Of a stretch of DNA of 64,000 bases, positions 1 to 16,449 are shown one piece after another (the first letter of the stretch is position 1; every line of letters begins with the position of its first letter). The stretch is from a virus. The position numbers and the translations under genes are program-made. The notes below the pieces were generated by a model that saw only the letters and a list, made by a program, of their open reading frames with translations, had not been told where the DNA came from and did no database searches. The stretch spans positions 72,991-136,990 of the IMG/VR virus record IMGVR_UViG_3300037258_001099; one strand, written 5' to 3'.

Positions 1-87
1 CCCTCGTCTGTCCATAATATGGAGCAACTCTCCAAATCCGAGCTGCACGCCTACATGGTAACCCATAGTGTCAAAGGAAATAAATTT

Positions 88-681: not shown

Positions 682-829
682 CAAAGGCTACCTGGAGCAA
701 GATGCCGAGCTGATGCTGGCCTTTGAGGTCCTGGAGGAGCTCTACGAAGAGCATGAAGCTGAGCAGGAACGCATGGAAGAGATAAAGAAGGCTAGATCAG
801 CGCATTTCGGGACCCAGCAGTCGGGATAG
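458..829 (+). CDS. Frameshift extension of tail assembly chaperone (gpT-like part of G-T fusion)
   Basis: Open frame 2 from the G5 run to TAG 829; helical acidic sequence (PNKGYLEQDAELMLAFEVLEE); usual G/GT position. Confidence 0.6.
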   Translation, partial: GGTRKANLEKMLRPQMAAVMEQMTHRQYVKYCQETEVEKEHYETHSYPHPFLLIWMEARRQVNPITGAMSYPEPNKGYLEQDAELMLAFEVLEELYEEHEAEQERMEEIKKARSAHFGTQQSG

Positions 830-837
830 GCCAACGT

Positions 838-853
838 ATTAAGGAAAAGTCGG
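838..853 (+). repeat. Dispersed motif copy ATTAAGGAAAAGTCGG
   Basis: Matches consensus TAAGGAAAAGTCGAT also found near 29739, 38618, 44487, 50296, 52091 and 60481. Confidence 0.75.
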
Positions 854-919
854 TTTCACGCACATTTTTGGAAAGGACAAGAGCAGTTCTTGTTCCCAGA
901 AGAAAAGGAACGTGAAACC

Positions 920-3900
920 GTGTCAACATTCGATTACAGCGCCTGGTTTGGATTTCGTCCCAGGATTTCATCCACAGCGGAAGGGTTTGCACGCATGCCA
1001 GACTATGATCCCTCTCAGTTTGCTCCCCGTCCTGTGTGGAACCCTGCAACAGGTAAGTGGGAAGATCCAAACAAAGCAAATCGCACAATCAACCGCAGAC
1101 CTACCATTGAGGCAGAGATTGCTGAGCGACAGCGCAGAGGATATTCTCTCTCTGATATTTCGCTTGCGCCACATGCTATCCCTCAAGGTGCCGCAGGTCC
1201 AGAGAAGTATCAGTCACCAGAGGAATGGAAGAAAGCTCAGAGCACCTTCCAGTCTGTACAAGGCGCTCTTGGAGCCTCCACTGGTAAACAAGCTGCTACA
1301 GAAGCCCTACGACGAAGTGATCTCAATAAGGCACTACGCCAGGGTCAGATAAGTACAGCAACTGCTGGCAAAGCTGCCATGATCACTGAGCGCATGAACC
1401 AAGAAGGGAAGCGTACACAGGCAGCGAACGAGGATCAGCTCAGAAATATGAGCACCCAGCCAGATGTAACGCCCTTCACCATCGTGCCACAAAAGAATCT
1501 TCCGTCACGAGCAAGCTTGCTCTCCCAGATGGAAGCTGCACAGCCCCAGGTAATAGCACTGCAACAGCAAACGCAGAAAAATGCCTCCGAGCTTATGGGC
1601 AAACAGGTAAAGATGCAGACGGTAAGTCAGTTCTTACCTGCCCTTTCACACGAGCAGCTTGGAGGGGTGCAGAGCAAGTCACAATATGTAGGGTTTCGTG
1701 GTGGTCCTGGTGGTGGCAAAAGTAAAGCGCTCATATCAGCCATCTTCAACAATCTGCTCAACCAAGGGCTCTCATCTGACGAGGCTGCTAGACTTGCCAA
1801 AAATACCATCTTTCTAAGCCAGACCAAATCAGCAGTCAGTCGCATGCGCACCAATATGGAAGGTGCAGAGCAAATGATCCCAGGCTGGGACGAGAAGGCT
1901 AGATCCGAGCAGATGATGACACTTGGCCGCTTTGCCATGAGTCTGCTTAATCGTAACCAGTCATCAGGCGGATCAATCTTACAGCAGATGGGGGCAGGTG
2001 ACTACAAGCCGCTCTACCAGGGATCTGGCGAAAACATTGAAGAGGAGATGGCAAAGCGCGAGCATGAGCAGGTTTTGAAGCGCGTGCTCACCCAACATGG
2101 TTACAATACTCGGATCAATAATGTAGGCCAGCTTGCCCAAACGATCGCCGAGATCAAAGGCACAAGCAGAGAGACTTTTGAGGCAGCCTACAAACGAGGG
2201 AAGTCTCTGCAAGACCAAAATAGTCAACGGCAAGTCATCCCCTCTGAGCAGGCGCTCTACTTGTATCAGAACGAGCTGCATAGAACGAAGCAGTATGACA
2301 TCAATGATGTGCCAGGAATGCTACTCAAAGCTTCGACGAAGAAGAATGTTCAGTTTCCGCGATTTGGCATGATTGCCAATGATGAGAGTCAGGACACGCC
2401 ACCCATTTATGGACAGCTCTTCCAGAAACTCCTTGGTCCATCTGGCCGACTCATTACGGCGGGCGACCCATCTCAGCAAGCGATCCGTCGCCCATGGGAT
2501 ATCGATCAGACCATGAAGAGTGCTGGAGCCAAAATCCATGAGCTGAGCATCAATTTTCGTACTGGCCGCCACAATGTCTCCAGTCTCAATCCACTGCTCG
2601 CAACCCAGGCCATGGCTGATCAGCCAAAGAGCCCATTCCAGGCTGCATTCAAAGAGCATGATCAACCTATCAGAACGCATGTGGAGGAAAATTTCCCTGC
2701 CATGCACCGAGCCATGTTTGGCAACTGGATGAAAGACATGGGTCTGACTCCAGCCATGATTGCCAAAAACATGCAGTCAGGGGTCCATCCATTCTCAAGT
2801 CCAGATGCTGGGAGTCTGCTTCCAGGAGATGCACCGTTCATCTTCCAAAGAGATGAGGAAGGTCGTGGTGCATTCCTCAAAGAGATGCGGTCTACGCTGA
2901 GCAAGCACATGGACGAGGCGATGCTTGATCGCTTCATGCAAGAGAACATCTCCAGCGAGCCACCTACCGCAAGCAATGTGATGTCTGCTCGTGCCTACAC
3001 GGTTGGTCAAGCTAGGTCCCATGAGTTCCCTGAAATTCATGGCGACGTAACTCCGCAAGGTCTCTGGCCTCCAGAAGGTCATATAGGCCAGATCTATACG
3101 ATGCAGTCAAGGGCTATTAATCAGCAGCATCTCTACTATTCTAAGAAGAATATGCCCAAGGGAACGCAGCATGATCTGGCTACCTCGTTCTTTGGAGGCC
3201 AAGAAGTGCCACATGGTTGGGACCAACTTATGCAGGCAGGAACAGAAAATCTGGTAGATCAGCAAGGTATGGCTGTCGCAGATTTACCAGAGGCGATGCA
3301 GTATGCCTATAACAGCCCACATGCCATGAACCTGGGGACTTCTCCAGAGCGGCCAACAGAAGACCCAGAGATGGTGAAGCAGTTTGTTGAGGAAACACTC
3401 TTTGCCAACAAGTTCTATAGTCCACCAGTTGACTCTGGATCTGGGCTGCTCCAGGGCAGCAAAGATGATCAATTTGCCGCTGACATGCGCACTTACGGTT
3501 TCAACGCCGAGATGCTCTCAGGGCAAACCAAGCGTTCTGTGATCTCACAGTCCAAGATGGAGATGGCAGCGCGTGCAGCCCAAGATATGATCATGAATGG
3601 CCCTGGTGTGGTCTCGCGGGGAGCAGCAACCTTCAACAGCGAAGGTGTCTGGCAAACCAAGCGTATGGGCAGGTCAGAGATCGAATCCGTTCCATCGCCC
3701 AAAGAGTTCATGGATCGTATCCATCAGATGGCGGGACCTATTCCAGCACGTCTCATGAAGGACGATATCGAGCGAGAAGCTTCCTCAGAGTTTCCTGAGA
3801 TCGATAATATCCAGATGAAGCCATGGGCAGGAAAGGAGCAATCTCAAGAGGCTGGTGACACGACGCAGGTCCGTCAGTGGATGGGACACGCACTTGCTAT

Positions 3901-6900
3901 TCCAGGGTTCCGCAATGTTCCAGAGATCATGGGCAGACTGAATGATCTACTCACTCATCCCAAGGTTCTCCAGTCGATCACGGGGCCACTTGGGAAGCTT
4001 GCTAAAAGTGATCCAAAGCTTGCTCAACTTCAGAAGCGGATCAATCTTGGTCGGCTCGATGGTCACGAAGCTGAGAAGATCAAGAACAGGATTGCCAGAC
4101 TTATAGGACTGGGTGCAAAAATCACACAGACTCAGCAAGTCCAGCTTTCTGCACTGCAATCGAAGATGAAGAAGGTTGGAGGAGAGCCTCTTCACCGGAT
4201 CATCTCGCGGGTAGTGACACCAACACTCACAGGTACCAACAAACCTAATCCGCTCTATCATGCAGGGTTTGCAGATCTACTTCATGGGGCCGCAGCAAAA
4301 CAGCTTCCCTGGCAGCATCTTGATCCAGACTTTGTGGGCTCGCTGGGAGGTAGGGCACGACAATTTGAAAGAGAGGGAGACACATCCAAGCGCCGTTTCT
4401 GGGGTGAGGCGGCAGGAAAATTTGAAGCATTTAGTTCCCAGGTGCATCCAGATGGATCGCCGCTCACAAAAGAGATGCTTGCCCACGCAGCTCCTCACGA
4501 GCGAGCACTTTTAGAGCGGATCTTCGAGAGCAAGCATGGTGGAGATATCCTGCCCTATAACCACCCAGATGTCGAGAGCCGCGTAAGCCAGTTTACCTAT
4601 CAGCGAGGCCTCGTCAATCGTGGCATGGTCTCTCCCGAAAACATGGCAGCAATGAAGCTTTCTCGTGCTAACTCCAGGCGTGCTCCTGGTGAGACGGAGT
4701 TTGCCAACCTCTACATGGCGTTGCAAGGTGGTCTTTCGGAAGGAAGCGGCTCTGGTATCGAAGACCCAATGAACACACTTGCACGGGGAGGAGGCAGATT
4801 TGCAAGTCTTGGCGCTGGAACGCGACTTGACTCTATGATCCAGAGACTTACGGAACTCTCTGATCCTGCTGGTCGTGTGCTCACTTCAGCCGAACGTGCG
4901 GGGTTTGCTGAGCAACTTGGGCAGGCACAGTATGTGAAGTCTGAGCTCTCCAGTCCTACCAACTGGCGTGATTGGGCGCATACCCTGCGGGCGGCAAGCC
5001 TTGCCTCAACTGGGAAAAACCTCCATGATCCAAAGCCCTTGGAGGAAGGAAAACCCAACGATCCAGTGAGAGAGCTTTTCCGCCACCGCGACCAACATGT
5101 TAAAAATGCTAGGTCTCTAGAAGGGCTGACAGGTCTCATCACTCCGCTCAAAGAGGCAACAGCACATTTACAAAAGACAGGATCACTGCGGCGGTCTCAT
5201 GTGGACGAGATCCTGAGAGCGTTTGGCTACGATCCGGCGGACAAGAATCTTACCGCGCTCCGAAAGCTAGAGGAGAAGAAAGGCTTTAGTAGCCGAGGCG
5301 GCCAAGATCCAGATCTACCAATGGCAAAATTGATCGGGCAGTTCCCAGACCAGATGAAAGATATGCGGGAGCAGCTTACCCGTGTGCCGATTATCCAGGG
5401 ATCGCAGCACTACACTTATATGGGAGGCGAGCCTGGATATGCCGATATCAAAAAAGCACAGCAGGGTATTCCCTCTGGGATCATGGGAACGCTGCATCCG
5501 CTTCCTAAAACAGATGAGACTGGGCCTGAAGAAGAATTTGGTCTCTCCAAAAATGTCCAGTTCCACATGAGTCGGGACATGTTCTCCAAATCCGATCTGG
5601 GAGTATTCAACCCAGAGAAGGCCAAGAGATTACCAGAGCATGTTGCAAATATGGATTATGCGCCACTCATGCAATTTGAAGGAATGCACCAGGGCAGCCA
5701 CGTAAGCTTTCCAGTTCACCCAGAGCAACTTGCTCTTGCGGACACCAGTGGCCTCGAACAGGAAAAGGGTATCCAGGATCTCTTCAAACGTGCTAGGTGG
5801 ACAGGTCTCAGATGGAAGGAGCAAGATCAAAATAAAAAGCAGATAGAGGTATTGCGTCGGTCAGCAGACGCTAAGCATAGAAAGGAGCATCCCCTCTTTA
5901 CGCCAAGGCAGCTTGCAAACCCTCGGGGATATGCTAGTTCCTTTGGAGTTGATCCACGGACACTCCCGCCAGCGTACAGATCACACATAGGAGGGCAAAT
6001 TAACTCTCCAAGCAAGGTCCTGGCGGCAGCGCAGGTAGCCCAGCACAGCCAGGGTCAGATGGCACGAGGGCTGGTGGGAATGCAGCAGCCAGTGCCAGAG
6101 CCCATGCCGTCTTATCGTGGATACCAGCTTGGTGGAGATTTAAACGAAGCGGCCATTGACTCGATCATTCGCAGCCAGCAGAAGAAGGAGCTAGAGGCAA
6201 ATACGGCAGAGACACCTGAGTTTGGGCCAGTTGATCCAAATTTGCAGCCGATGCTTCCTGGCTTTGGTGGAGGCGGGGGAAATCTTCCCCCAAGGCCACC
6301 ATCGGTTCCTACACCAGAACCAGAAAACGATCCCAGTAGAATGTTCTCGGCTTTGTCTTCTCCAGAATTGGAGAGGGCACAGCCTTTTCTTGCGCATCCC
6401 AGATTCAACCAGCTCTACAAAACTTTCGAGACAGGACGGCTCTTTGGAAGACAAGTAACGTGGCAAGGGCATCTTGAAGATGAGCACGCCTTTAATCTGC
6501 GTCATCCAGAGCTCCATAAGAGTGATCTTGAGCTAACGAGCGGCCTCTTGGGGAAATCAGTTCCTCCGCCTCCACCTGATGCATCTACCATGGCTCCACG
6601 GCAAAGACAAGAATCATCCGGCTTGCGCCAAAGAATGATGGTTCAACATGCATCTGGTCTGGCACAGGCAAGAGATAGGAAAAACGATCCGCTGCTCGCA
6701 ACGATTGGGCAGCATATTCCTGCCCAGGTGCCACTAGCACCAAGCCAAGGGGGAATTCCACCCCACGACATGGCTCAACTTCTTACACATCTACGCAGCG
6801 GGAAACAGTCCTCTGATATCGCCCTGGCAAAGCAATACGGCAAAGCGCCGATGCAATACCTAGGTAGTATTTCCGGTAATCAGAAACCATTACCGGAAAT

Positions 6901-9900
6901 TGCAGCAGTAGCTCCTGGCGCGAGAGGGTCCTGGGATGAAGATTCGTATGGCTTCCCAGCAGAAGCTCCTCCTGATGACCTTTCTATGGGTGACGAGGAA
7001 ATGTTTGAGTTTCACCAAGCTCTGGGTCAGATGGATGCGTTCGAGTCACCTGCAAAAAAAGCTACTCCAGCCCCTGTAAGTCCAACGCCTATTCCTGCTC
7101 CTGCCTCAGCGGGGCCAGCGTACCAACTCTCTCACTTGCCAAAGCTGATGCGATCACAAAGGCGCACCCTTATTAGAGGAGGCCAGATTCACCCCTTTGA
7201 GGAAGGAAAGCCTGGCATTGGTGTTGGAGGAACCAATCCTGAGCAACGTGATGTGTTAAATGCTCCTGATCGCCGCATGATTGTGCAAGGTGGGCCTGGC
7301 ACGGGCAAAACTGAGACCATGATCATGAAGATCGCGGACCTGATTGCTAAAGGCCATGTCGACCCAAGCCGTATCATGGCTTTCTCTGGTATGCACTCAG
7401 GTGTCTCTGAGCTCAACACCAGGATGAGCAAATTCTTGCAGCCATTACTTCCCCATGGAGAAGAGCACAAGCTTCCTGCGGCTCGTACACTGCACTCTCT
7501 AGCCCATCAGGTCCTCTTCCAAAGAGGCAAGCCAAGTCCAGCACTGGGTGGCATTGGACTTGGTTGGATTAAGGGGGTCATGGGTAACCCAAGCGAGGAA
7601 GAGCTCGCAAGGCAAACTCCAGAGACCCAGGAAAAGCTCCGCGACCAGCAACGTCAATTCTTGCACGGGGCTATTAAGCAAAACTTCCCGAAAGCCAAAT
7701 GGCTTCCAAGCACACCAGACGAGCTTGATCGTGTCATGGGGGATATCAAGAAATACAAGTCTAGTCGCACTGGAGAGGACCCACTTTACGATAAGATGAT
7801 AAAAAAAGGCCTTGGGGATATTTCTCATGGCAAAAAGTTCACCCATGCCGGAGCCCTTGCTGTCTATGAGCAATCTGTGGCGCAGACAGGCAACATTGAT
7901 TTTGAGGATCTGATCACCTACGGCAGTTCTGCTCTTGGCCGTCTCGGAAGCGAAGCTATCCCGCAAGGTGTTGAGGGAACGCAGCTCCTCGCCTATGACG
8001 AGGCGCAAGACGCCAACCGAGAGAACCTGGGATTTGTCTCCAATCTCGTGAGTGCTCTTGGACCAGAAACACATGCAGTTGTCGGTCTTGATCCACTCCA
8101 GTCGCTTTTTCAGGGAGCTGGAAGCCTGCCTGGAGAGCATATTGTGCCAGCCATTCAGCAGATGCTGGGTGGAGCAGGACACATTCAGCTTCGCGGAAAC
8201 TATCGCAGCTCCATGAAGGATGTGGCGCTCTCCAATTCGATCTTACAAATGCATGCCATGAGCGGAAAGAAAGGACTTTCCCCACTTCAGGTCCCCTATT
8301 CACAGAAGCTTGGATCAGAGCCAAGCTTCATGCTTAGAAAATCCCAGCCTGAGCTCTATAAGAAGATGTTTTCCTCTATGCTTGCCCATGCTGGTGTCTC
8401 TCCAAAAACCATGCGAGAAAATATTTTGGCTGGAGAGCATCCCTTTAAAGGAGTGGACTGGAACCAGCCAGACAAGATTCGGCCAGGGGAAATGCCTGCA
8501 CTTTTTATGATGAAGGCGCAGCGCTCACTCTTTGAGCATATTGCCCCATCAATCATTCAGGGGCTTGATCCAGCGGGCAAGATTGATCCTGAGATGGCAA
8601 AGAAAGCCTTTGGGCAGATGTATCGGCCAGGTCTGCCTGGCAAAGCCGCAAGCGATGAAGAACAGACTATATTTGCCAATAAGCTCGCATTCCGAGGACT
8701 CACCGTGGGCCAGAGTAGAGGACTCTCCTTTGAGAACCCACATATGGATGCCTCCCCCGTAGGGGAATGGCGGCGTCCTGGGGAGAAGGCTGAGGAGTCG
8801 TACTTGCACAATCTGGGAGTCATGGTTTCTCGCACAAAAGAGGGTGGACGCAGCTTTATTGGGGCGGCAAGCACCCCGTTTTCTGGCGATCAGATGAAGG
8901 ATTTTGTCCAGACACAAGGAAAGCACTACCGCGAGACCTCTCCAGAGTCACATAATCGTGGATCGGTATGGTATGGGGAACCTGGCTCTGATCCGCTATC
9001 TGTCCATCCCCGCAATGAGTTCGATACCCACGAAGGTCAACCAGTAGCACACTACTTTGGCGAGATTATGGGACTCCAGAAGAAGCAGGTAGATGACTGG
9101 AAAGCGATGAAGAATTCCCCTGCCCAAGCGGCTGTTCCAGCACAACTTGTCTCGCAAGAAGCAGTTGCCGCATCACCCCCTAGAAAGCAAGATCTTGCCA
9201 AGACAGCTCTGTCTGACCTTCAATCACGTGCGCCATCTGGCAGGAGTGCTCAAATAGAGTCGCTGCTAGCAAAGACGGTTGCATCGCCCCACGCGTCAGA
9301 TCCTAGCCAGCACGCAATGGTCGGTCAACTCCACACAGAGTTTGCCAAACTTGGTGGCTCAGCTTCCTGGTCAGATTTCATGAAAGCAAAAGCACCAGAG
9401 ATTGAGAATCTAGCAGGACCACAAAGCCCTGTGACCAAGCTTGCTCAAACAATGGCCGCATCCCCTGATAAATATGCGCCTGGATCTACGGCGATATCAG
9501 CCAAAGATGTCACCGTCAATGCTGCCGCCAATTCCAAAATCACCGTTGCAGGGGGCGCACAGGTTGATGTGATCCGAGCAAGCACGCCTCCTCTCGCCTC
9601 TATGGCAGCAGTAGGTAAAGGCGCATCGCCCGTGAGCTCCACCATTGCCAAAAATACACCAATAGAGGACTTACCTCTCTCGGGAGCAACTCCTGTCACG
9701 CGTATTAGCCGCAATCCTTTTGCAAGCACTGGAGGCATTCCGTCTACGTCAACAACGACAGTGGCTCAGGTCACAGGTGGTGCTCCTTCTGGGACAAGTG
9801 TTGGCGCAAGCACAGTAGGTGGGCCATCATCTAAAGGTGGCATTGGCTCGTTGGTTATCCACCCAGGAGCATCTGTTGGCGCTATCAACGTCTACGGAGG

Positions 9901-12900
9901 TGGACCAACTACGGGCGGAGGCGGAGATGGTGGGGACAAAGAGCCGCCAAAGACCACGCTTGCGAAGTTCTCCGACGGGCTCACGAATACTGGTCGTACC
10001 TTCGCTCGTATTGGGCAGGAGATGCAGTACTTCGGGCAGCTCTTCAATGATGTTACGCAGAAGGCACTTGAGCAAGGATCAGACTATAGACTTGCCTCTG
10101 GGACATTTAAAGCATCTGGCGCAACCGCTGACAGGGGCTTCTACGACTTTGCCAATCCTGCGAGCGGCATCTCTCAGATGCAGACGAATAGCCTGCCGAT
10201 GTTCTCCAAGACCGATATTGCACAAAATCTCCAAAATGTAGCAGGCATGGTAGGAGGCCAGCTTCCACCTTCTGGGACGTCAACGAGTATCATGCAGCTT
10301 GCAGCACTAACTGGGGCAGATCCGACACAGCTTACCTCTCAGATAGGCTACATCAGTGGCTCGATGGGACAAGGGATGACCGCTACACCTGCAATCGAAG
10401 GATACACGGGGAGCCTCTATCACGGCCAGGTAAACGCAACCAACCTTGCTCCAACGCTCCAAGCGGTCTCCTCGGCGCTTCCCAGCATGCAAGGGCTCAC
10501 ATTTGGACAAGGCAACAATCTAGGAGCCTTCTACGGCCTCATGAATGCGGCTCAAGGCGGAGGCATGACAGCGGCCAATATGCCCGATGTCTCTGACCTT
10601 ACGAATTCTCTGGCTCAAGTAGGCACTGCGCCTAATCTCAATCAGCAGGCAGCACTCAATCAGCTTTTCCCAGGACAGCTCACAGGCGGTGCCCAGCTTG
10701 CCCAGTTCCAACAGCAACAAGTGGGAATGAGTGAGCAGGCAGGAGAGCTTGGTCTTCAGCAGCAGTTCAATGTGCCAGGCCTTCAGATGCAGATTGGCAA
10801 TGCCAACGTCGCGATGCAGCAGGCTAATGTTGATCTCGGGCAGATCCAACAACAGCAAGGCTATGCCCAACTTGGCCTCTCTCAGCAAGAGCTTGGATCA
10901 AGCCAGGCGAACCTTGATTACCAGAGAGACCAGCATGACTATCAGCAAGCCAGCCTGAACTATCAGAAGCAGCAGCTTAATTATAGTGAGGCACAGCTTG
11001 GCTATTCCCAGCAGCAATTTCAATATAGCCAGGCTCAGTACAGCCAAGCGCAACTCCAGCAGCAATATGCGCAAGCGAGCTTTACCCAGCAGCAATATGT
11101 CCAGACACAGGAGTATGGCCCCATTGGTGCCGACACTGGACGGCAGAGCTACTTCGATTTCATGCGTAATCAGCAAGCGGCAGGATACAACCCGCTCTCC
11201 GCTGAAACTGGGACCCAGTTCAAGCCGTCAGCGCCTCAAGGTATCCAGAACATGCAGTTCTACGCAGGGATTGAGAACCAGCGTCAGATGAGCATCCTCT
11301 CGCGGTCACCGCTGCTCTCAGATGCTGCATTTCAGCAACAGCAAAAATACTTAAACGAGCAAGAGGCCTTCTATAAGGAGCAGCTAGACTTAACAAACGA
11401 GCAGCGTACCTTTGACGTGACCTGGGGACAGAAGATGCTCGACTCCCAGCAGAAACTCCTCGACCTACAAGGGCCACTGCTCACTACACAGAAGAAGCTC
11501 CTGGATATGCAGCAGCCAATGCTCGATACCCAAAAGAGCCTGCTGAACCAACAGCAAGGGCTTCTCAACACTGAGGGGCATCTCCTCGATCTCCAACAAG
11601 GCATTCTGGATACCCAAAAAGGCATGCTTGTCTATACCCAGGAAGCCCTTGATCAGCAGGGCAAAATCCTGGGTATCCAGCAGACCCAGGTGGGCCTTAC
11701 AGCGCAGATGAATGATTACCAAAATGCTCAGCTCAAGCTTCAACAAGCGTATCTGCCAGCCCAGCTTGGGGCTCTTCTCGCAGTCCAGACAGCCATGGAG
11801 CAGCAAATTAATGGACAAGGCCCTGTCAATGGCACAAATCCCACGCCACAGCAGATCATTAAGCAGCTCTCTCTTATCCAGAATCCAACCCAGCAACAGG
11901 ATATTATGCGCAACCTGGGACTGCCTCCCAATCAGGTAAATACCCTGCAAACTATCCTCAATGGTATGAAGAAGGCTGGCGGCTATGATGCAGCCATGAG
12001 TGGGGTTTCCCCTGCCGACAAAAGCATCCAGGCGCAGGTGAACAACCTCATCAAGTCAGGAGCCTTTGCTGGACAAACAAATCAAGCTGCACAGTCTGAC
12101 ACCTCGCTCCTGCTTGGTGGCACAGCAGCGCAGTGGACAAAGTTCACGCAGGCTTTTGATACGGCCAACAAATATGCAGAGCAAACAGCAAACGCTGCAT
12201 CCTCCATCAACGACTATATCAAGGGCTGGGGAACCTTCTTTTCTATGGCTGGTCCTGCCATTGTTGGCATCGGCATGCTGCTCCAGGGTCTTGGGCTTGG
12301 CGGACAGGCACTGAACTTCTTTACATCAGGAGGTGCCTCTGCTGCTGCTGGCGGGGCTGCAAGCTGGGTAACACAAACAGCAGCTCCAGCAGTCGCCTCG
12401 GCGGCATCAACAACGGCAAGCGCAATCTCGTTAGCCCTTACCACTGCTGCCCCTATCATCATTCCTCTGGTTATTGCTGCTGCCGGAACGGCAATTATAA
12501 CATTCGCATTAAAGTGGCTTGGGGATCAGGCATCAAATATTAATCAGCAGAACTTTAACAACCCAAAGAATGCAACCTCAAATCTTCCGTCGTGGCTTCA
12601 GTGGCTTCCTGGCAAAACAGCTTCTCCACAAGTTGTTGCTTCTGCGCAATCGAAGCAAGATGCGTACCGAGCCTCTCACGGCGGAAAAGACATGCCGATG
12701 CCTGATGAGAGTCCGCTCGCCAAGGGAACGCTTCTTGGGGATGCCTGGAGCGGTATTAAGACAGGCGTAGGCAACGCCTGGAATTGGCTGACAGGTGGAA
12801 ACAACAAAGCTGAAGCATCTCCCGCTCCAGCAAATCCCAAAGGACATGACTTTGGGGCACAACCAAATGCACCAGTGATACCCACGCCACCATCGGTATC

Positions 12901-14656
12901 ACCATGGAGTACGGCATACAAAGCTATTGTGGGGGTATTTGCGCCGCTAGGCAAAACTTTCCAGGGCTATTGGAACGCTGTAGCTAGCGGATCTGACTGG
13001 TTAAGAACATATATCAAAGGTAAAATAAGCGATTCATGGAATGCTATCGTCACTAAGTTCTCTCCTCTAGGTAAGTTTTTTAGCAATCTTTGGGTTGATG
13101 TACAAAATGTATGGAAATCAGCTCCTGGATGGCTACACGATAGATTTCAAGATGCATGGAACAGGGTAACAGGGGTATGGTCCCCTCTCGGTAAGATTTT
13201 CCAGGGCTTTTGGAAAGACGTACAGAATGTATTTGTAGGAGCACCCAAGTGGTTCCAAGGTGAATGGCAAATTGCGTGGAATAATGTAACAAATATATGG
13301 TCTCCAATCGGTAAAACATTCCAGGGATACTGGAATGATATCATGGGAGGAGTTAATTGGCTCAGAACGAATATATCTAATACATGGAATAGTATAAAGG
13401 TAGATACTGAAAATATATTTCACAATATGATAAACGGGATTATCGATCATTTAAATGATGGAATATCGGGCGTAGAGGGATTTATTAACTTTTTTGGGCA
13501 AGGACTCGATAAAATTGCTGGGGCCTTCCATGTCAGTGATCCTATCCCACAGAATAATCACCTCGGTCGCATTCCCCACTATGCTCTTGGTACCGACTCC
13601 CATCCTGGCGGCCCTATGGTTGTAGGTGAAAAAGGTCCCGAACTGCTTTTTGCTCCAAAGGGCTCTACAGTTGTTCCGGCTGATCTGACCGAAGCGCTGC
13701 TCTCAATGTTTAAAGGCAAGGTTCCAGGCTATGCTGGCGGCGTTGGTGATATCACAGCGTCTATCATCGATTGGGTAACAGGTGGCGCTAAATCGTTATT
13801 GGACAACGTTGTGAGCACTCTGCATATCACGGCTCCAAATCTCGGACCAATGAAGGACATTTCATCTGGTGTCTTCAACTCATTGGAGAAGTGGGCGCTA
13901 AGTTGGATCAGTTCGATTTTGCCATCTTTCGGTGGCAGTGGCAGCCAAGGGAGCCCAGGAACACTGACAGGTGTTCCTGGCAATGTTGCTTCATGGATAC
14001 AATCCGCTATGGCGCTCACGCACGTGCCTGCAAGCTGGCTAGCAGACCTAGAAATTATCGCTATGCACGAATCGGGCGGCAATCCGAATTCTATTAACCT
14101 TTGGGACAGCAATGCCCTAGCTGGTCATCCTTCACAAGGCCTGTTTCAGACGATACCTGGCACTTTCGCCGCCCATGCTCTTCCAGGTCACGGAAATATA
14201 TTAAACCCGATAGACAATGCTGCTTCAGCTATTGGGTACATAGAGGGTAGATATGGCGATGTGTTCCATGTGCCTGGAATAGTCTCAATGAGTCATGGTG
14301 GCCCTTATGTCGGGTATTCTGGAGGCGGCATACTCTCTGAACCTGTTGTTGGCACGGGACTGAGTACTGGGACACGATATAGCTTTGCAGAGGCTGCGCC
14401 AGAGGCAATTGTGCCACTCTCAAAGCTTTCCATTGCGCTCAAGTCTCTTCCCAAGAGCGGGAGTAGTGCCGTCTCTACCCAGCCAACAACAATATCTTCA
14501 AATTCTGGACAAAGCATTCAAATAAAGAGCCTGATTGGGACCGCAACCATTAACATAAACACCAATGGAACAAAAATTGCTGACACCGAGAAAGATGAGC
14601 TGATGAGTCAGATCATGGATCTCTTTAGTGATGCGCTCAAGCAGTTGAACACCTAA
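920..14656 (+). CDS. Giant tape-measure protein with two N-terminal UvrD/PcrA-like SF1 helicase domains and C-terminal lytic transglycosylase
   Basis: Lies between chaperone and Dit-like genes. Walker A GGPGGGKS (1700) and GGPGTGKT (7289), Walker B DESQD (2381) and DEAQD (7997), motifs III-VI present in both. Q-rich heptads, Trp-periodic repeats, GE.GPE motif and SLT motif HESGGNPNSINLWDSN...SQGLFQ (Glu at 14069). Probable GTG start at 920 after AAGGAA. Confidence 0.9.
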   Translation: MSTFDYSAWFGFRPRISSTAEGFARMPDYDPSQFAPRPVWNPATGKWEDPNKANRTINRRPTIEAEIAERQRRGYSLSDISLAPHAIPQGAAGPEKYQSPEEWKKAQSTFQSVQGALGASTGKQAATEALRRSDLNKALRQGQISTATAGKAAMITERMNQEGKRTQAANEDQLRNMSTQPDVTPFTIVPQKNLPSRASLLSQMEAAQPQVIALQQQTQKNASELMGKQVKMQTVSQFLPALSHEQLGGVQSKSQYVGFRGGPGGGKSKALISAIFNNLLNQGLSSDEAARLAKNTIFLSQTKSAVSRMRTNMEGAEQMIPGWDEKARSEQMMTLGRFAMSLLNRNQSSGGSILQQMGAGDYKPLYQGSGENIEEEMAKREHEQVLKRVLTQHGYNTRINNVGQLAQTIAEIKGTSRETFEAAYKRGKSLQDQNSQRQVIPSEQALYLYQNELHRTKQYDINDVPGMLLKASTKKNVQFPRFGMIANDESQDTPPIYGQLFQKLLGPSGRLITAGDPSQQAIRRPWDIDQTMKSAGAKIHELSINFRTGRHNVSSLNPLLATQAMADQPKSPFQAAFKEHDQPIRTHVEENFPAMHRAMFGNWMKDMGLTPAMIAKNMQSGVHPFSSPDAGSLLPGDAPFIFQRDEEGRGAFLKEMRSTLSKHMDEAMLDRFMQENISSEPPTASNVMSARAYTVGQARSHEFPEIHGDVTPQGLWPPEGHIGQIYTMQSRAINQQHLYYSKKNMPKGTQHDLATSFFGGQEVPHGWDQLMQAGTENLVDQQGMAVADLPEAMQYAYNSPHAMNLGTSPERPTEDPEMVKQFVEETLFANKFYSPPVDSGSGLLQGSKDDQFAADMRTYGFNAEMLSGQTKRSVISQSKMEMAARAAQDMIMNGPGVVSRGAATFNSEGVWQTKRMGRSEIESVPSPKEFMDRIHQMAGPIPARLMKDDIEREASSEFPEIDNIQMKPWAGKEQSQEAGDTTQVRQWMGHALAIPGFRNVPEIMGRLNDLLTHPKVLQSITGPLGKLAKSDPKLAQLQKRINLGRLDGHEAEKIKNRIARLIGLGAKITQTQQVQLSALQSKMKKVGGEPLHRIISRVVTPTLTGTNKPNPLYHAGFADLLHGAAAKQLPWQHLDPDFVGSLGGRARQFEREGDTSKRRFWGEAAGKFEAFSSQVHPDGSPLTKEMLAHAAPHERALLERIFESKHGGDILPYNHPDVESRVSQFTYQRGLVNRGMVSPENMAAMKLSRANSRRAPGETEFANLYMALQGGLSEGSGSGIEDPMNTLARGGGRFASLGAGTRLDSMIQRLTELSDPAGRVLTSAERAGFAEQLGQAQYVKSELSSPTNWRDWAHTLRAASLASTGKNLHDPKPLEEGKPNDPVRELFRHRDQHVKNARSLEGLTGLITPLKEATAHLQKTGSLRRSHVDEILRAFGYDPADKNLTALRKLEEKKGFSSRGGQDPDLPMAKLIGQFPDQMKDMREQLTRVPIIQGSQHYTYMGGEPGYADIKKAQQGIPSGIMGTLHPLPKTDETGPEEEFGLSKNVQFHMSRDMFSKSDLGVFNPEKAKRLPEHVANMDYAPLMQFEGMHQGSHVSFPVHPEQLALADTSGLEQEKGIQDLFKRARWTGLRWKEQDQNKKQIEVLRRSADAKHRKEHPLFTPRQLANPRGYASSFGVDPRTLPPAYRSHIGGQINSPSKVLAAAQVAQHSQGQMARGLVGMQQPVPEPMPSYRGYQLGGDLNEAAIDSIIRSQQKKELEANTAETPEFGPVDPNLQPMLPGFGGGGGNLPPRPPSVPTPEPENDPSRMFSALSSPELERAQPFLAHPRFNQLYKTFETGRLFGRQVTWQGHLEDEHAFNLRHPELHKSDLELTSGLLGKSVPPPPPDASTMAPRQRQESSGLRQRMMVQHASGLAQARDRKNDPLLATIGQHIPAQVPLAPSQGGIPPHDMAQLLTHLRSGKQSSDIALAKQYGKAPMQYLGSISGNQKPLPEIAAVAPGARGSWDEDSYGFPAEAPPDDLSMGDEEMFEFHQALGQMDAFESPAKKATPAPVSPTPIPAPASAGPAYQLSHLPKLMRSQRRTLIRGGQIHPFEEGKPGIGVGGTNPEQRDVLNAPDRRMIVQGGPGTGKTETMIMKIADLIAKGHVDPSRIMAFSGMHSGVSELNTRMSKFLQPLLPHGEEHKLPAARTLHSLAHQVLFQRGKPSPALGGIGLGWIKGVMGNPSEEELARQTPETQEKLRDQQRQFLHGAIKQNFPKAKWLPSTPDELDRVMGDIKKYKSSRTGEDPLYDKMIKKGLGDISHGKKFTHAGALAVYEQSVAQTGNIDFEDLITYGSSALGRLGSEAIPQGVEGTQLLAYDEAQDANRENLGFVSNLVSALGPETHAVVGLDPLQSLFQGAGSLPGEHIVPAIQQMLGGAGHIQLRGNYRSSMKDVALSNSILQMHAMSGKKGLSPLQVPYSQKLGSEPSFMLRKSQPELYKKMFSSMLAHAGVSPKTMRENILAGEHPFKGVDWNQPDKIRPGEMPALFMMKAQRSLFEHIAPSIIQGLDPAGKIDPEMAKKAFGQMYRPGLPGKAASDEEQTIFANKLAFRGLTVGQSRGLSFENPHMDASPVGEWRRPGEKAEESYLHNLGVMVSRTKEGGRSFIGAASTPFSGDQMKDFVQTQGKHYRETSPESHNRGSVWYGEPGSDPLSVHPRNEFDTHEGQPVAHYFGEIMGLQKKQVDDWKAMKNSPAQAAVPAQLVSQEAVAASPPRKQDLAKTALSDLQSRAPSGRSAQIESLLAKTVASPHASDPSQHAMVGQLHTEFAKLGGSASWSDFMKAKAPEIENLAGPQSPVTKLAQTMAASPDKYAPGSTAISAKDVTVNAAANSKITVAGGAQVDVIRASTPPLASMAAVGKGASPVSSTIAKNTPIEDLPLSGATPVTRISRNPFASTGGIPSTSTTTVAQVTGGAPSGTSVGASTVGGPSSKGGIGSLVIHPGASVGAINVYGGGPTTGGGGDGGDKEPPKTTLAKFSDGLTNTGRTFARIGQEMQYFGQLFNDVTQKALEQGSDYRLASGTFKASGATADRGFYDFANPASGISQMQTNSLPMFSKTDIAQNLQNVAGMVGGQLPPSGTSTSIMQLAALTGADPTQLTSQIGYISGSMGQGMTATPAIEGYTGSLYHGQVNATNLAPTLQAVSSALPSMQGLTFGQGNNLGAFYGLMNAAQGGGMTAANMPDVSDLTNSLAQVGTAPNLNQQAALNQLFPGQLTGGAQLAQFQQQQVGMSEQAGELGLQQQFNVPGLQMQIGNANVAMQQANVDLGQIQQQQGYAQLGLSQQELGSSQANLDYQRDQHDYQQASLNYQKQQLNYSEAQLGYSQQQFQYSQAQYSQAQLQQQYAQASFTQQQYVQTQEYGPIGADTGRQSYFDFMRNQQAAGYNPLSAETGTQFKPSAPQGIQNMQFYAGIENQRQMSILSRSPLLSDAAFQQQQKYLNEQEAFYKEQLDLTNEQRTFDVTWGQKMLDSQQKLLDLQGPLLTTQKKLLDMQQPMLDTQKSLLNQQQGLLNTEGHLLDLQQGILDTQKGMLVYTQEALDQQGKILGIQQTQVGLTAQMNDYQNAQLKLQQAYLPAQLGALLAVQTAMEQQINGQGPVNGTNPTPQQIIKQLSLIQNPTQQQDIMRNLGLPPNQVNTLQTILNGMKKAGGYDAAMSGVSPADKSIQAQVNNLIKSGAFAGQTNQAAQSDTSLLLGGTAAQWTKFTQAFDTANKYAEQTANAASSINDYIKGWGTFFSMAGPAIVGIGMLLQGLGLGGQALNFFTSGGASAAAGGAASWVTQTAAPAVASAASTTASAISLALTTAAPIIIPLVIAAAGTAIITFALKWLGDQASNINQQNFNNPKNATSNLPSWLQWLPGKTASPQVVASAQSKQDAYRASHGGKDMPMPDESPLAKGTLLGDAWSGIKTGVGNAWNWLTGGNNKAEASPAPANPKGHDFGAQPNAPVIPTPPSVSPWSTAYKAIVGVFAPLGKTFQGYWNAVASGSDWLRTYIKGKISDSWNAIVTKFSPLGKFFSNLWVDVQNVWKSAPGWLHDRFQDAWNRVTGVWSPLGKIFQGFWKDVQNVFVGAPKWFQGEWQIAWNNVTNIWSPIGKTFQGYWNDIMGGVNWLRTNISNTWNSIKVDTENIFHNMINGIIDHLNDGISGVEGFINFFGQGLDKIAGAFHVSDPIPQNNHLGRIPHYALGTDSHPGGPMVVGEKGPELLFAPKGSTVVPADLTEALLSMFKGKVPGYAGGVGDITASIIDWVTGGAKSLLDNVVSTLHITAPNLGPMKDISSGVFNSLEKWALSWISSILPSFGGSGSQGSPGTLTGVPGNVASWIQSAMALTHVPASWLADLEIIAMHESGGNPNSINLWDSNALAGHPSQGLFQTIPGTFAAHALPGHGNILNPIDNAASAIGYIEGRYGDVFHVPGIVSMSHGGPYVGYSGGGILSEPVVGTGLSTGTRYSFAEAAPEAIVPLSKLSIALKSLPKSGSSAVSTQPTTISSNSGQSIQIKSLIGTATININTNGTKIADTEKDELMSQIMDLFSDALKQLNT
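6869..6900. repeat. 12-8-12 inverted repeat ATTTCCGGTAAT-N8-ATTACCGGAAAT inside the tape-measure CDS
   Basis: Perfect 12-bp arms; near-identical site at 47845-47876 and half site at 51926-51937. Confidence 0.85.
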
Positions 14657-15180
14657 TGGGAAATGCAAGTGGCTTTGGCATTGGAACATACCAGCCTCTC
14701 TCTGGGGTAACAACAACCATCGGATCAGGCTTTCCAAATGCTCCATTTCAGCTCGTCCATCCGTATGCAGGTACCTACGGTGGCAACTATGGGTACGTGA
14801 TCGACACGACGATCAAGTCACCAAACGAGGTCCAGTGGACTCCTGCGCCAGAAATCGGCATTGATGGGATTGGCAACTCTGTCATTCGTGGATTTCCACA
14901 GATTGAGTGGGACTACCCGATTATGCGGCCAGATCATTGGTACAAGCTAAAATTTTTGAGAAATCAGTCAGCTAAAGTGCCACCTGCATATCAGTACATT
15001 GTGTTGCTCCAGTACCCCGACGTTTTTGGATCAGGGGTGCTCGCACAACAACTAGCACGATTTGAGCCCATCACCTTTTCAAGCCGAACATCTGCGATCT
15101 TCCAATCGGTCGTCTTGAAATTCACGTACGTGGGGCAAGCACAACTGCTTTCTGGAACACCTATTTCTATCATTGCATAA
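14656..15180 (+). CDS. Distal tail (Dit)-like protein
   Basis: Translationally coupled to the tape-measure gene (TAATG); size and beta-rich composition; call is positional. Confidence 0.55.
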   Translation: MGNASGFGIGTYQPLSGVTTTIGSGFPNAPFQLVHPYAGTYGGNYGYVIDTTIKSPNEVQWTPAPEIGIDGIGNSVIRGFPQIEWDYPIMRPDHWYKLKFLRNQSAKVPPAYQYIVLLQYPDVFGSGVLAQQLARFEPITFSSRTSAIFQSVVLKFTYVGQAQLLSGTPISIIA

Positions 15181-15191
15181 GGAGGCGACCT

Positions 15192-16253: not shown

Positions 16254-16263
16254 GGGGACGACT

Positions 16264-16425: not shown

Positions 16426-16449
16426 TTCATGATTGTAGGATCGTAAAGT

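What the first reader, a model, noticed from the sequence alone, without database searches (positions are those of the whole stretch)
920..14656. Tape-measure protein fused to two SF1 (UvrD/PcrA-like) helicase motors: candidate self-powered DNA-ejection machine
Seen: one uninterrupted ~4,580-codon ORF in the canonical tape-measure slot (after the G/GT chaperone, coupled to Dit). Its last ~1,560 aa are ordinary tape measure plus SLT. Its first ~3,000 aa hold two full SF1 motif sets. Copy 1 (~1640-3140): LSHEQ, GGPGGGKS, DESQD, GDPSQ, LSINFRT, TVGQAR, YTMQSRA. Copy 2 (~7230-8850): NPEQ, GGPGTGKT, DEAQD, LDPLQS, LRGNYRS, TVGQSRGL, VMVSRT. Established: tape-measure proteins are ejected into the envelope and can form the DNA conduit, with the C-terminus at the tail tip and the N-terminus near the head. 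Some phages finish DNA entry with enzymes (T7 by transcription, N4 by injected vRNAP). Inference: the helicases enter just ahead of the genome and could pull it in using host ATP, unwind its ends, or strip host defence proteins. I know of no described TMP with tandem UvrD domains.
Basis: partly seen in the sequence, partly recalled or inferred. Interest (0 to 1): 0.95.

Follow-up and report, generated by a model that had tools for sequence, protein, structure and literature searches.

The report
Tape measure protein carrying two helicases
An uncultured soil phage, like about a dozen distant relatives known only from metagenomes, builds two DNA-unwinding motors into the protein that measures its tail and leaves the tail just ahead of the DNA, so the motors may act on the genome as it enters the cell.

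Summary
Window 890..14656 (+) is one open frame of 4,588 codons; the start supported by a homologue is the ATG at 995, giving 4,553 aa. Two UvrD/PcrA-type SF1 helicase modules (aa 242-789 and 2092-2696) pass Pfam's cut-off. The second folds with high confidence as a whole UvrD/PcrA/Rep helicase. The last ~1,560 aa are a normal tape measure with a hydrophobic segment, Trp repeats, an SLT lysozyme and a conserved C-terminal end.

It is not a misassembly. The same collinear layout occurs in 12 of 12 full-length family members (3,891-6,121 aa, hel2 identity down to 27%). All come from metagenome assemblies, and no free-standing close relative of the helicase was found. ATPase motifs are kept in nearly all copies.

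The function is inferred, not shown. The closest published case is Thermus phage P23-45 gp96, a 5,002-aa tape measure with an N-terminal virion RNA polymerase; it has no sequence similarity to this protein. I found no paper describing a helicase-tape measure fusion. The neighbours' names (G/GT chaperone, Dit) could not be verified. The scan has not seen this family on other DNA. Verdict: a new variant of a known kind, interest 0.72.

The parts
1..829 (+). Upstream chaperone-like ORF (starts 92 nt before the window; frame 1 ends at 681) with an overlapping second frame (305-829). The geometry is G/GT-like, but the shift would be +1 or -2.
   Evidence: frame 1 becomes low-complexity after ~nt 470 while frame 2 becomes protein-like. 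Possible slip sites are CGGGGGA and CAGAAAAG at ~460-472. No Pfam or PHROG hit. The function is inferred from position only.
838..865 (+). 28-nt motif upstream of the giant gene. Four other copies lie in the same phage genome, all upstream of minus-strand genes at 27.9-31.2 kb.
   Evidence: 5 copies with at most 6 mismatches (3, 4, 6 and 6 mismatches to this copy). A likely phage-specific promoter or regulatory site; not tested.
890..14656 (+). Giant gene: 4,588 codons from TTG 890. The start supported by the homologue and the database call is ATG 995 (4,553 aa).
1124..1609 (+). Conserved N-terminal region (aa ~79-240) of unknown function.
   Evidence: phmmer of this segment finds it in 5 of 11 full-length relatives (P0003, P0006, P0007, P0008, P0011). 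No Pfam hit.
1613..3256 (+). Helicase module 1 (aa 242-789), UvrD-like SF1.
   Evidence: PF00580 E 6.2e-15. Related to module 2 (family HMM cross-hit E 1e-51; P0001 hel1 against P0003 hel2 at 22.6% over 576 aa, E 6.5e-12). Motif counts.
4457..5749 (+). Conserved middle domain (aa ~1190-1620), fold unassigned.
   Evidence: AF2 of aa 1100-1660 gave mean pLDDT 67.5 and pTM 0.67, with a folded core at ~aa 1190-1620. Foldseek PDB best E 0.28. VIA wide best Z 5.6.
5837..7159 (+). Pro/Ala-rich low-complexity linker 1 (aa 1650-2090).
   Evidence: Composition P13 A10 L9. Variable in length among relatives.
7163..8977 (+). Helicase module 2 (aa 2092-2696), with a complete UvrD/PcrA/Rep-like fold.
   Evidence: PF00580 E 5.3e-23. 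PcrA 2pjr E 1.7e-6 by sequence. AF2 pLDDT 89.9, pTM 0.86. Foldseek top hit 4c2t UvrD E 1.9e-20, TM 0.56, followed by PcrA, Rep, AdnB, AddA and RecB.
8990..9949 (+). Ala/Ser/Gly-rich linker 2 (aa 2701-3020).
   Evidence: Composition A14 S12 G11.
9950..13969 (+). Tape measure core (aa 3021-4360). It holds a Gln-rich helical region (aa 3270-3640, Q 25%), a hydrophobic segment (aa 3842-3878, nt 12413-12523) and four W...PLGK.F repeats (aa 4006-4144).
   Evidence: PHROG tape-measure families. tblastn matched 1,315 phage records, mostly annotated as tape measure, but covering only aa ~3950-4550. Composition, hydropathy and repeats.
14048..14260 (+). SLT lytic transglycosylase domain (aa ~4387-4457).
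   Evidence: PF01464 E 2e-7. Most relatives have an M23 peptidase here instead (Pfam on P0004; source names for P0005 and P0006; HQGVDF consensus in A5).
14390..14653 (+). Conserved C-terminal end module (aa 4501-4588).
   Evidence: Found in 11 of 11 full-length relatives and in P0005.
14656..15180 (+). 174-aa ORF whose ATG overlaps the giant gene's TAA (TAATG).
   Evidence: No PHROG, Pfam or PDB match.
15192..18573 (+). Two further presumed tail-tip genes (353 aa and 707 aa).
   Evidence: No PHROG hit. The 707-aa protein has a weak PKD_4 match, E 1.5e-4, below the cut-off. Role inferred from position.

Best explanation
This is one real gene for a tape measure protein whose N-terminal two thirds carry two paralogous UvrD/PcrA/Rep-type SF1 helicase modules. 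Long flexible linkers and an unknown conserved domain separate the modules.

Proposed mechanism, inferred by analogy with P23-45 gp96:
1. The whole chain is loaded in the tail in an extended, metastable form.
2. The C-terminal part leaves first. It digests peptidoglycan with its SLT domain and inserts its hydrophobic segment to form the entry channel.
3. The N-terminal helicases leave last, directly ahead of the DNA.
4. They refold in the cytoplasm while still tethered to the channel.
5. They load on the leading end of the genome and use host ATP to translocate along it. This reels in and/or unwinds the incoming DNA.

Shown: the gene, the domains, the fold, motif conservation, family-wide conservation of the fusion, and tape measure identity. 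Inferred: virion incorporation of the N-terminal part, ejection, refolding, ATPase/helicase activity, and the role in DNA entry.
For: - The gene is intact and re-assembled identically.
- Two PF00580 modules score above the cut-off.
- Module 2 models as a full UvrD-like helicase: pLDDT 89.9, Foldseek E 1.9e-20.
- Catalytic motifs are kept across a family that has diverged to 27% identity in hel2. In hel2, Walker A GK[TS], DExQD, the motif IV Arg and the motif VI Ser-Arg are each present in 14 of 14. In hel1, Walker A, motif III D..Q, the motif IV Arg and the motif VI [ST]R are each present in 12 of 12, and Walker B DE in 10 of 12.
- The fusion is obligatory in the family. All 12 of 12 full-length members have hel1 and hel2 (P0009 and P0012 were not in the hel1 training set). 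All 11 of 11 relatives have the tape measure core and the C-end.
- Of 1.84 billion representative proteins, the 14 hits at E <= 1e-30 are giants or fragments. Scores then fall to 5.7e-24 (a 529-aa fragment) and 6e-12 (ordinary helicases), so no free-standing close version was seen.
- The C-terminal part is a bona fide tape measure sitting among the tail genes.
- The topology fits. From established knowledge (recalled), the tape measure N-terminus lies next to the DNA end.
- A published precedent exists for an active enzyme delivered as the N-terminal part of a tape measure: P23-45 gp96 (PMC10770324; abstract and sections 6 and 13 read).
Against: - There are no virion, expression or activity data of any kind.
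- A folded SF1 helicase cannot fit in a tail tube lumen (general knowledge). The model therefore needs storage unfolded and refolding after ejection. That is only hypothesised even for P23-45.
- SF1A helicases track single-stranded DNA, so reeling in a duplex needs unwinding or a loading site.
- Motif V is far from the canonical form, and no UvrD_C Pfam match was found.
- The neighbouring chaperone and Dit are unverified.
- Sheath absence, and hence siphovirus morphology, is only suggested: 0 sheath hits among the 30 neighbour proteins scanned with PHROGs.
- The same evidence fits an anti-defence role equally well.
Confidence: 0.45

Rival explanations
1. Delivery is the same, but the job is counter-defence rather than transport. 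The tethered helicases would occupy or remodel the leading DNA end to keep host end-dependent nucleases (RecBCD/AddAB type) or restriction complexes off it, or would strip bound host proteins. This would resemble virion-carried anti-restriction proteins such as P1 DarB and other polyvalent proteins.
For: Helicase-containing giant proteins delivered with DNA are an established theme (PMC5512222, passages read). The fold also resembles the motor subunits of end-processing machines: AdnB, AddA and RecB at E 1e-13 to 1e-14. Two motors per chain recall the two-motor end-binding complexes. No nuclease domain is present, so the protein could bind ends without degrading them.
Against: No methylase, SNF2 helicase, zincin or other hallmark polyvalent-protein domain is found. 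In the main text of PMC5512222, UvrD-like helicases appear only in a few actinomycete plasmid giants, and 'tape measure' occurs 0 times. Strict conservation of the ATPase motifs in both modules argues for sustained motor activity rather than simple capping.
Confidence: 0.25
2. The N-terminal ~3,000 aa are cut off before or during tail assembly and work inside the infected cell (recombination, replication restart, concatemer processing). Only the C-terminal ~1,560 aa would be in the virion, giving a tail of about 235 nm.
For: Long low-complexity linkers flank module 2 and could hold cleavage sites. From recalled knowledge, some tape measures are processed (lambda gpH, T5 pb2). These are the only UvrD-type helicases in the genome. 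P0005 (2,248 aa) begins just before hel2, so shorter forms may exist.
Against: A late-expressed enzyme made at tape measure stoichiometry and fused in 12 of 12 deep-branching members is hard to explain without co-delivery. No conserved cleavage motif was identified, though I did not search for one systematically. In P23-45 the enzyme part is in virions (PMC10770324, section 6 and the Fig. 1e legend).
Confidence: 0.12
3. The helicase-like modules are exapted as mere length or packing material for a very long tail and no longer hydrolyse ATP.
For: In P23-45 the whole 5,002-aa protein is said to define the very long tail (PMC10770324 abstract). Motif V is degenerate here.
Against: Walker A, DExQD, the motif IV Arg and the motif VI Arg finger are kept in 14 of 14 hel2 copies and in 10-12 of 12 hel1 copies, despite hel2 identity as low as 27%. 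A spacer would not be expected to keep these.
Confidence: 0.06
4. It is an assembly or sequencing artefact that joins separate helicase and tape measure genes.
For: The only evidence is a single metagenome at ~10x depth.
Against: Eleven independent full-length relatives from other assemblies (JGI, Logan, ENA) share the same collinear layout. A second assembler gave an identical contig.
Confidence: 0.02

Closest known systems
Thermus phage P23-45 gp96 (and P74-26, G20c, TSP4 homologues): tape measure protein with an N-terminal virion RNA polymerase (Chaban et al. 2024, PMC10770324)
   Same: Both are giant tape measures (5,002 aa against 4,553-4,588 aa). In both, an N-terminal nucleic-acid enzyme is followed by membrane and cell-wall-hydrolase parts. 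The P23-45 enzyme is proposed to stay with the tape-measure pore and act on DNA as it enters. The gene order is also similar: a ~350-aa tail protein, a small chaperone-like gene, then the giant gene.
   Different: There is no detectable sequence similarity (blastp E <= 1 gave none; phmmer against the family gave none). No structural-gene similarity was found apart from a weak terminase hit. The enzyme here is two SF1 helicases, not a two-barrel RNA polymerase. The hydrolase here is SLT (M23 in relatives), against a metallopeptidase in gp96. Nothing here has been tested experimentally.
UvrD / PcrA / Rep SF1A helicases
   Same: The Pfam N-terminal domain matches. Motifs Q, I, Ia, II, III, IV and VI are present. 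The whole-chain fold matches.
   Different: - There is no UvrD_C Pfam match.
- Motif V is non-canonical.
- Only ~147-166 residues separate motif IV from the motif V-like site, against roughly 270 in E. coli UvrD (recalled). The 2B domain is therefore probably much reduced.
- The 1B region is enlarged.
- The helicase is embedded twice in a structural protein.
Polyvalent proteins of phages and conjugative elements, including P1 DarB (Iyer et al. 2017, PMC5512222)
   Same: Both are giant multi-domain proteins thought to enter the cell with the DNA. Both combine helicases with peptidoglycan hydrolases.
   Different: The DarB methylase-SF2 helicase pair and the other hallmark domains are absent. 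The scaffold here is a tape measure, which is not mentioned in the main text of that paper. I could not see its supplements.
Tape measure proteins with embedded cell-wall hydrolase domains (mycobacteriophage TM4, T5 pb2; recalled, no paper read here)
   Same: The C-terminal third carries an SLT or M23 domain, a hydrophobic segment and a conserved C-end, like the many tape measures of Gram-positive-infecting phages matched.
   Different: Those carry small envelope-acting domains. None is known to carry cytoplasmic nucleic-acid motors.
Two-motor DNA-end machines AdnAB / AddAB / RecBCD
   Same: Both have two UvrD-like motor modules acting together. The fold matches AdnB, AddA and RecB.
   Different: No RecB-type nuclease domain was detected. 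The two motors lie in one chain, ~1,300 residues apart. The closest structural matches are UvrD/PcrA/Rep, not these.
Enzyme-driven genome internalisation (T7 RNA polymerase, N4 virion RNA polymerase; recalled)
   Same: The concept is the same: a nucleic-acid motor completes DNA entry.
   Different: Those motors are polymerases, and they are not fused to a tape measure.

Membership tests
UvrD/PcrA/Rep-like SF1A helicase | Match to the UvrD-helicase N-terminal domain (PF00580) above the curated cut-off | tested here: met
   Module 1: 56 bits. Module 2: 82.5 bits. Cut-off 23. Also found by the genome-wide family search.
UvrD/PcrA/Rep-like SF1A helicase | Motifs Q, I (Walker A), II (DExQD), III, IV (Arg) and VI (Arg finger) present | tested here: met
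   In the window protein both modules have all of them. Across the family, each is present in 14 of 14 hel2 copies except the motif III Asp (13 of 14). In hel1 each is present in 12 of 12 except Walker B DE (10 of 12).
UvrD/PcrA/Rep-like SF1A helicase | Canonical motif V and a UvrD_C (PF13361) match | tested here: not met
   No UvrD_C hit at E <= 0.1 to 1. The motif V position reads TVGQARSHEF and TVGQSRGLSF; only the basic residue is kept. The canonical form is recalled.
UvrD/PcrA/Rep-like SF1A helicase | Two RecA-like domains in the overall UvrD fold | tested here: met
   For module 2 only: AF2 pLDDT 89.9; Foldseek 4c2t E 1.9e-20, TM 0.56, with alignment over most of both chains.
UvrD/PcrA/Rep-like SF1A helicase | Full-size 2B domain | tested here: inconclusive
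   The spacing from motif IV to the motif V-like site is 147 aa (hel1) and 166 aa (hel2). This is about 100 aa shorter than in UvrD (recalled). Model coordinates could not be inspected.
UvrD/PcrA/Rep-like SF1A helicase | DNA-dependent ATPase and 3'-5' unwinding | not testable with these tools
   Needs purified protein.
Tail tape measure protein | Homology to known tape measure families | tested here: met
   phrog_167 E 7.7e-72, phrog_4070 4.7e-34, phrog_1535 3.8e-18, phrog_58 5.1e-12. tblastn matched 1,315 phage records, and most of the listed rows that carry an annotation call it a tape measure. The matches cover only the last ~950 aa.
Tail tape measure protein | Position between the tail chaperone and the tail-tip genes | tested here: inconclusive
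   The gene lies downstream of the terminase, portal and major head genes and of a 'minor tail' phrog_290 gene. It follows an overlapping-frame ORF pair and precedes three unassigned ORFs. The immediate neighbours have no family match.
Tail tape measure protein | Hydrophobic/membrane segment, helical Gln-rich rod and a cell-wall hydrolase | tested here: met
   Hydrophobic stretch aa 3842-3878 (KD 2.48), Gln 25% over aa 3270-3640, four W...PLGK.F repeats, SLT.
Tail tape measure protein | Present in the tail, with length proportional to tail length | not testable with these tools
   No isolate is available. The prediction is ~685 nm if the whole chain is the ruler and ~235 nm if only the last ~1,560 aa are, at 0.15 nm per residue (rule recalled).
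Polyvalent proteins (Iyer et al. 2017) | Hallmark modules such as the DarB-type methylase-SF2 helicase pair, zincin peptidases, ArdC-N or LPD domains | tested here: not met
   Pfam finds only UvrD-helicase/AAA twice plus SLT in the window protein, and UvrD plus M23 or SLT_3 in P0003 and P0004. The LPD families may not all be in Pfam.
P23-45 gp96-type tape measure with fused virion RNA polymerase | Sequence homology to gp96 | tested here: not met
   blastp at E <= 1 and phmmer at E <= 0.01 gave no hit.
AdnAB/AddAB/RecBCD helicase-nucleases | RecB-family nuclease domain joined to the motor | tested here: not met
   No nuclease family was found in Pfam scans of the whole protein or of eight segments.

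The most novel reading that the evidence does not exclude
A third kind of enzyme-driven genome entry. The tape measure forms the membrane channel. Its tethered pair of 2B-reduced, constitutively active SF1 motors sits at the cytoplasmic exit. The motors reel the 137-kb genome into the cell on host ATP, and both must refold from an extended state stored in a ~0.7-micrometre tail.
Probability: 0.25. Interest if true: 0.9.

Novelty: new variant of a known kind. Interest (0 to 1): 0.72.

Why it matters
How long-tailed phages finish moving their DNA into the cell is still open for most of them. One published case shows that a tape measure can carry an active polymerase. This family would be a second, independent case, with a different enzyme class. 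That would suggest the tape measure is a general delivery vehicle for cytoplasmic nucleic-acid enzymes.

The modules are compact and well modelled, with intact motifs, so their ATPase, polarity and unwinding can be tested with recombinant protein without culturing the phage. If whole-chain length sets tail length, these phages should have tails of roughly 0.58-0.92 micrometres (3,891-6,121 aa). That would also raise the question of how globular enzymes are stored unfolded in a tail tube and refold after ejection.

Tried and rejected
Searches for close relatives:
- Cultured phages: megablast of window 1-14700 against 50,697 phage records gave no match.
- tblastn of hel2 gave 1 record, an ordinary helicase of Bacillus phage S4-1 at 24% identity.
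- Pattern scans of IMG/VR with hel2, P0003, P0006 and the most conserved tape measure stretch found no relative.
- A genome-contig scan (one genome per prokaryote species) gave 39 pattern matches, none confirmed. So I found no prophage copy and no host.
- The metagenome-contig scan with alignment A4 used generic Walker A-type patterns. It returned 14 loci at 22-46% identity. Their longest open frame is 1,432 codons, so none is a family giant. This was a dead end.

Genomic context of the relatives:
- I could not check synteny in relatives, or whether P0005 (2,248 aa, starting 88 aa before hel2) is a split or truncated form.

Rest of the protein:
- The ESM Atlas on aa 791-2090 gave no usable hit.
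- The AF2 model of aa 1100-1660 had no PDB match (Foldseek best E 0.28; VIA wide best Z 5.6 over ~55 residues). The absence of a match does not show a new fold.
- hel1 against PDB sequences gave no hit at E <= 1.
- The 174-aa downstream ORF against PDB sequences gave none.
- The long insert between hel2 and the tape measure in P0013, and the shorter one in P0009, are Pro/Gln/Ser- and Ala/Pro/Gly-rich low complexity, not extra domains by composition.

Other checks:
- BFVD viral fold search: the 50 listed hits are free-standing UvrD-like helicases or pieces of long viral proteins, none named tape measure. Two split entries of long 'uncultured Caudovirales phage' proteins (A0A6J5QNL6, A0A6J5NDH2) were not followed up.
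- Expression: no RNA holder was listed.
- I considered internal translation starting at the tape measure boundary. I saw no Met between ~aa 2990 and the conserved GRTFARIGQEM, but did not test this further.
- I did not search systematically for repeated cleavage motifs.

Papers:
- PMC5512222: passages only (5 places).
- PMC7824862: passages only (2 places).
- PMC10770324: outline, abstract and sections 6 and 13.
- Supplements are closed. The supplementary architecture lists of PMC5512222 and Supplementary Data 4 of PMC10770324 might hold related fusions that I could not see.
- The statement that no helicase-tape measure fusion is in print rests on the searches.


Full report
**What is there.** The window is the last 64 kb of a 136,990-bp viral contig, 91% complete by CheckV. 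Window 890..14656 on the + strand is open for 4,588 codons from a TTG. The public gene call (P0002) starts at Met36 (ATG, nt 995; 4,553 aa). The N-terminus of the closest homologue aligns there.

Pfam finds the UvrD-helicase domain twice: aa ~254-529 (E 6.2e-15) and aa 2116-2407 (E 5.3e-23). It also finds an SLT domain at aa ~4387-4457. PHROG tape measure families cover aa ~3645-4566. These are the only two UvrD-type matches in the phage genome.

The C-terminal third looks like an ordinary tape measure:
- a Gln-rich (25%) stretch at aa 3270-3640;
- one strongly hydrophobic segment at aa 3842-3878;
- four W...PLGK.F repeats;
- SLT and a conserved end module.

tblastn of the last 1,568 aa matches 1,315 phage records, and most of the annotated rows listed are tape measures of phages of Gram-positive bacteria. 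The matches cover only about aa 3950-4550, at 23-31% identity in the rows listed.

**Not an artefact.** A word-index search restricted to giant proteins found two relatives. P0003 is 4,332 aa, and its source names it 'SLT domain-containing protein/superfamily I DNA/RNA helicase'. P0004 is 4,525 aa and has an M23 peptidase in place of SLT.

An exhaustive HMMER search of 1.84 billion representative proteins with helicase module 2 gave 14 hits at E <= 1e-30. Ten are 3,891-6,121 aa, with the match at residues ~1,950-3,300. Four are shorter pieces (2,248, 2,506, 908 and 719 aa). Scores then fall to 5.7e-24 (a 529-aa piece) and to 6e-12 for ordinary UvrD/PcrA-like proteins.

I mapped segments of the window protein on these relatives. 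The order is the same throughout: N-terminal region, helicase 1, middle region, helicase 2, linker, tape measure core, hydrolase, C-end. The tape measure core and C-end are in 11 of 11 full-length relatives. Family HMMs detect both helicase modules in 12 of 12 full-length members. This includes P0009 and P0012, which were not used to build the helicase 1 model; the others match partly by construction.

All members come from JGI, Logan or ENA metagenome assemblies, and none comes from NCBI or UniRef. The one sequencing run holding this DNA is a soil metagenome, probably the source. Its independent Logan assembly covers window 1-16500 in one contig with no differences.

**The helicases.** The two modules are paralogues. 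P0001 helicase 1 aligns to P0003 helicase 2 at 22.6% over 576 aa (E 6.5e-12). The helicase 2 HMM hits helicase 1 at E 1e-51. Each module is closer to its positional counterpart in other members, so the duplication predates the family.

Motif conservation:

| Motif | Helicase 2 (n = 14) | Helicase 1 (n = 12) |
|---|---|---|
| Q motif | 14 | 12 |
| Walker A GK[TS] | 14 | 12 |
| Walker B / DExQD | 14 (DExQD) | 10 (DE; P0013 has EE, P0014 has GE) |
| Motif III Asp | 13 | 12 |
| Motif III Gln | 14 | 12 |
| Motif IV Arg | 14 | 12 |
| Motif VI [ST]-Arg | 14 | 12 |
| Basic residue at motif V-like site | 14 (13 Arg, 1 Lys) | 10 |

Motif V itself is far from the canonical form (recalled). No UvrD_C Pfam match appears.

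AlphaFold2 on aa 2091-2700 with a 30-row alignment gave mean pLDDT 89.9 and pTM 0.86. Foldseek against the PDB ranks D. radiodurans UvrD first (E 1.9e-20, TM 0.56). PcrA, Rep, E. coli UvrD and M. tuberculosis UvrD1 follow, then AdnB, AddA and RecB at ~1e-13 to 1e-14.

The spacing from motif IV to the motif V-like site is 147 and 166 residues. That is about 100 fewer than I recall for UvrD, so the 2B domain is probably much reduced. I could not inspect coordinates, so this stays inconclusive.

**The rest of the chain.** Helicase 2 is flanked by low-complexity linkers: aa 1650-2090 is Pro/Ala-rich and aa 2701-3020 is Ala/Ser/Gly-rich. Length differences among relatives lie largely in such linkers. 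A conserved middle region (aa ~1190-1620) models as a mostly helical domain plus a small barrel (mean pLDDT 67.5). It has no convincing structural match. The N-terminal 240 aa and aa 791-2090 gave no Pfam hit, and aa 791-2090 gave no Atlas hit.

**Genomic setting.** The phage has a large terminase, a portal and a major head protein upstream. A 356-aa 'minor tail' (phrog_290) gene follows. Next comes a 257-aa ORF whose second half looks non-coding, while an overlapping frame (305-829) looks coding. That geometry fits a chaperone with a programmed shift, but the shift would be +1 or -2 (possible sites CGGGGGA and CAGAAAAG). Nothing matches a known chaperone family.

The 174-aa ORF after the giant gene starts in the stop codon (TAATG). 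It is too divergent to name. No sheath protein was recognised among the 30 neighbour proteins scanned with PHROGs. That fits a non-contractile tail but does not prove one.

**How it most likely works.** Established knowledge (recalled) holds that the tape measure fills the tail tube with its C-terminus at the tip and its N-terminus next to the DNA end. It is expelled at infection and helps form the channel.

The only published case of a nucleic-acid enzyme built into a tape measure is P23-45 gp96. It is 5,002 aa, its N-terminal ~1,100 residues are an active virion RNA polymerase, and the protein is present in virions. The authors propose that the polymerase stays with the tape-measure pore and transcribes DNA as it enters. 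They note that packaging details are unknown (PMC10770324; abstract and sections 6 and 13). gp96 has no sequence similarity to this protein. The two phages share no structural genes beyond a weak terminase hit. This is therefore an independent invention of the same principle.

By analogy, I propose that the helicases are stored extended in the tail and leave last. They would refold in the cytoplasm still tethered to the channel and load on the leading DNA end. Strict retention of the ATPase motifs in both modules across deep divergence argues that ATP-driven movement on DNA is the selected function.

Whether that movement serves transport, end unwinding or counter-defence cannot be told from sequence. 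My estimates:
- about 0.7 that the helicase part is delivered with the tail;
- 0.45 for a role on the entering DNA as motor or unwinder;
- 0.25 for counter-defence;
- 0.12 for removal by processing before assembly;
- 0.06 for an inactive spacer;
- 0.02 for an artefact.

**Comparison and novelty.** The protein works like P23-45 gp96 in architecture but is not a member of that family. It is a divergent member of the UvrD/PcrA/Rep helicase group. It is a genuine tape measure.

It lacks the hallmark modules of DarB-type polyvalent proteins. The main text of the polyvalent-protein survey never mentions tape measures. It reports UvrD-like helicases only in a few actinomycete plasmid giants.

Five literature searches turned up no description of a helicase-tape measure fusion. 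The BFVD fold search listed only free-standing viral helicases or pieces of long proteins not named tape measure. The scan's own index holds this family only from this same genome.

I rate it a new variant of a known kind. It is a well-supported, conserved and so far undescribed class of tape measure cargo. Its mechanism is plausible, but no experiment supports it yet.

Noticed in passing
window 838-865 (+); genome copies at G000:C1 27935-27962, 28514-28541, 29415-29442, 31183-31210 (all -): A 28-nt motif (core TTAAGGAAAAGTCGG...) lies 25 nt upstream of the TTG at 890 and 130 nt upstream of the ATG at 995. Four more copies (3-6 mismatches) lie upstream of minus-strand genes 42-45 kb away. This may be a phage-specific promoter or regulatory site shared by the giant gene and a cassette array.
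   Followed up: partly
window 1-829 (+): The chaperone-like ORF pair upstream of the tape measure would need a +1 or -2 shift rather than the usual -1. Candidate slip sites are CGGGGGA and CAGAAAAG near nt 460-472.
   Followed up: partly
window 18797-21907 (+): A ribonucleotide reductase large subunit gene (phrog_84, E 5e-149) follows directly after only three presumed tail-tip genes. The tail-tip module is unusually small, or parts of it lie elsewhere.
   Followed up: no
genome G000:C1 64178-64813 and 65867-66901 (upstream of the window; L004 10178-10813 and 11867-12901): A thymidylate kinase gene and an HNH/endonuclease VII-like gene sit inside the structural gene block, between the head and tail genes.
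   Followed up: no
genome G000:C1 39890-41215 (L005 5890-7215): A 441-aa transposase-like protein (phrog_506, E 8e-40) lies just upstream of the packaging genes.
   Followed up: no
relatives P0004-P0015 (C-terminal ~250 aa): Most family members carry an M23 peptidase where the window protein and P0003 carry SLT. The cell-wall hydrolase has been swapped within an otherwise collinear protein.
   Followed up: partly
BFVD entries A0A6J5QNL6_3 and A0A6J5NDH2_1: Pieces of long 'uncultured Caudovirales phage' proteins named DNA 3'-5' helicase match the helicase 2 model weakly. They could be other giant helicase-bearing phage proteins.
   Followed up: no
window 16450-18573 (+): The 707-aa presumed tail-tip protein has a weak PKD-domain match (E 1.5e-4, below the cut-off). 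It may be a receptor-binding or adhesion protein.
   Followed up: no
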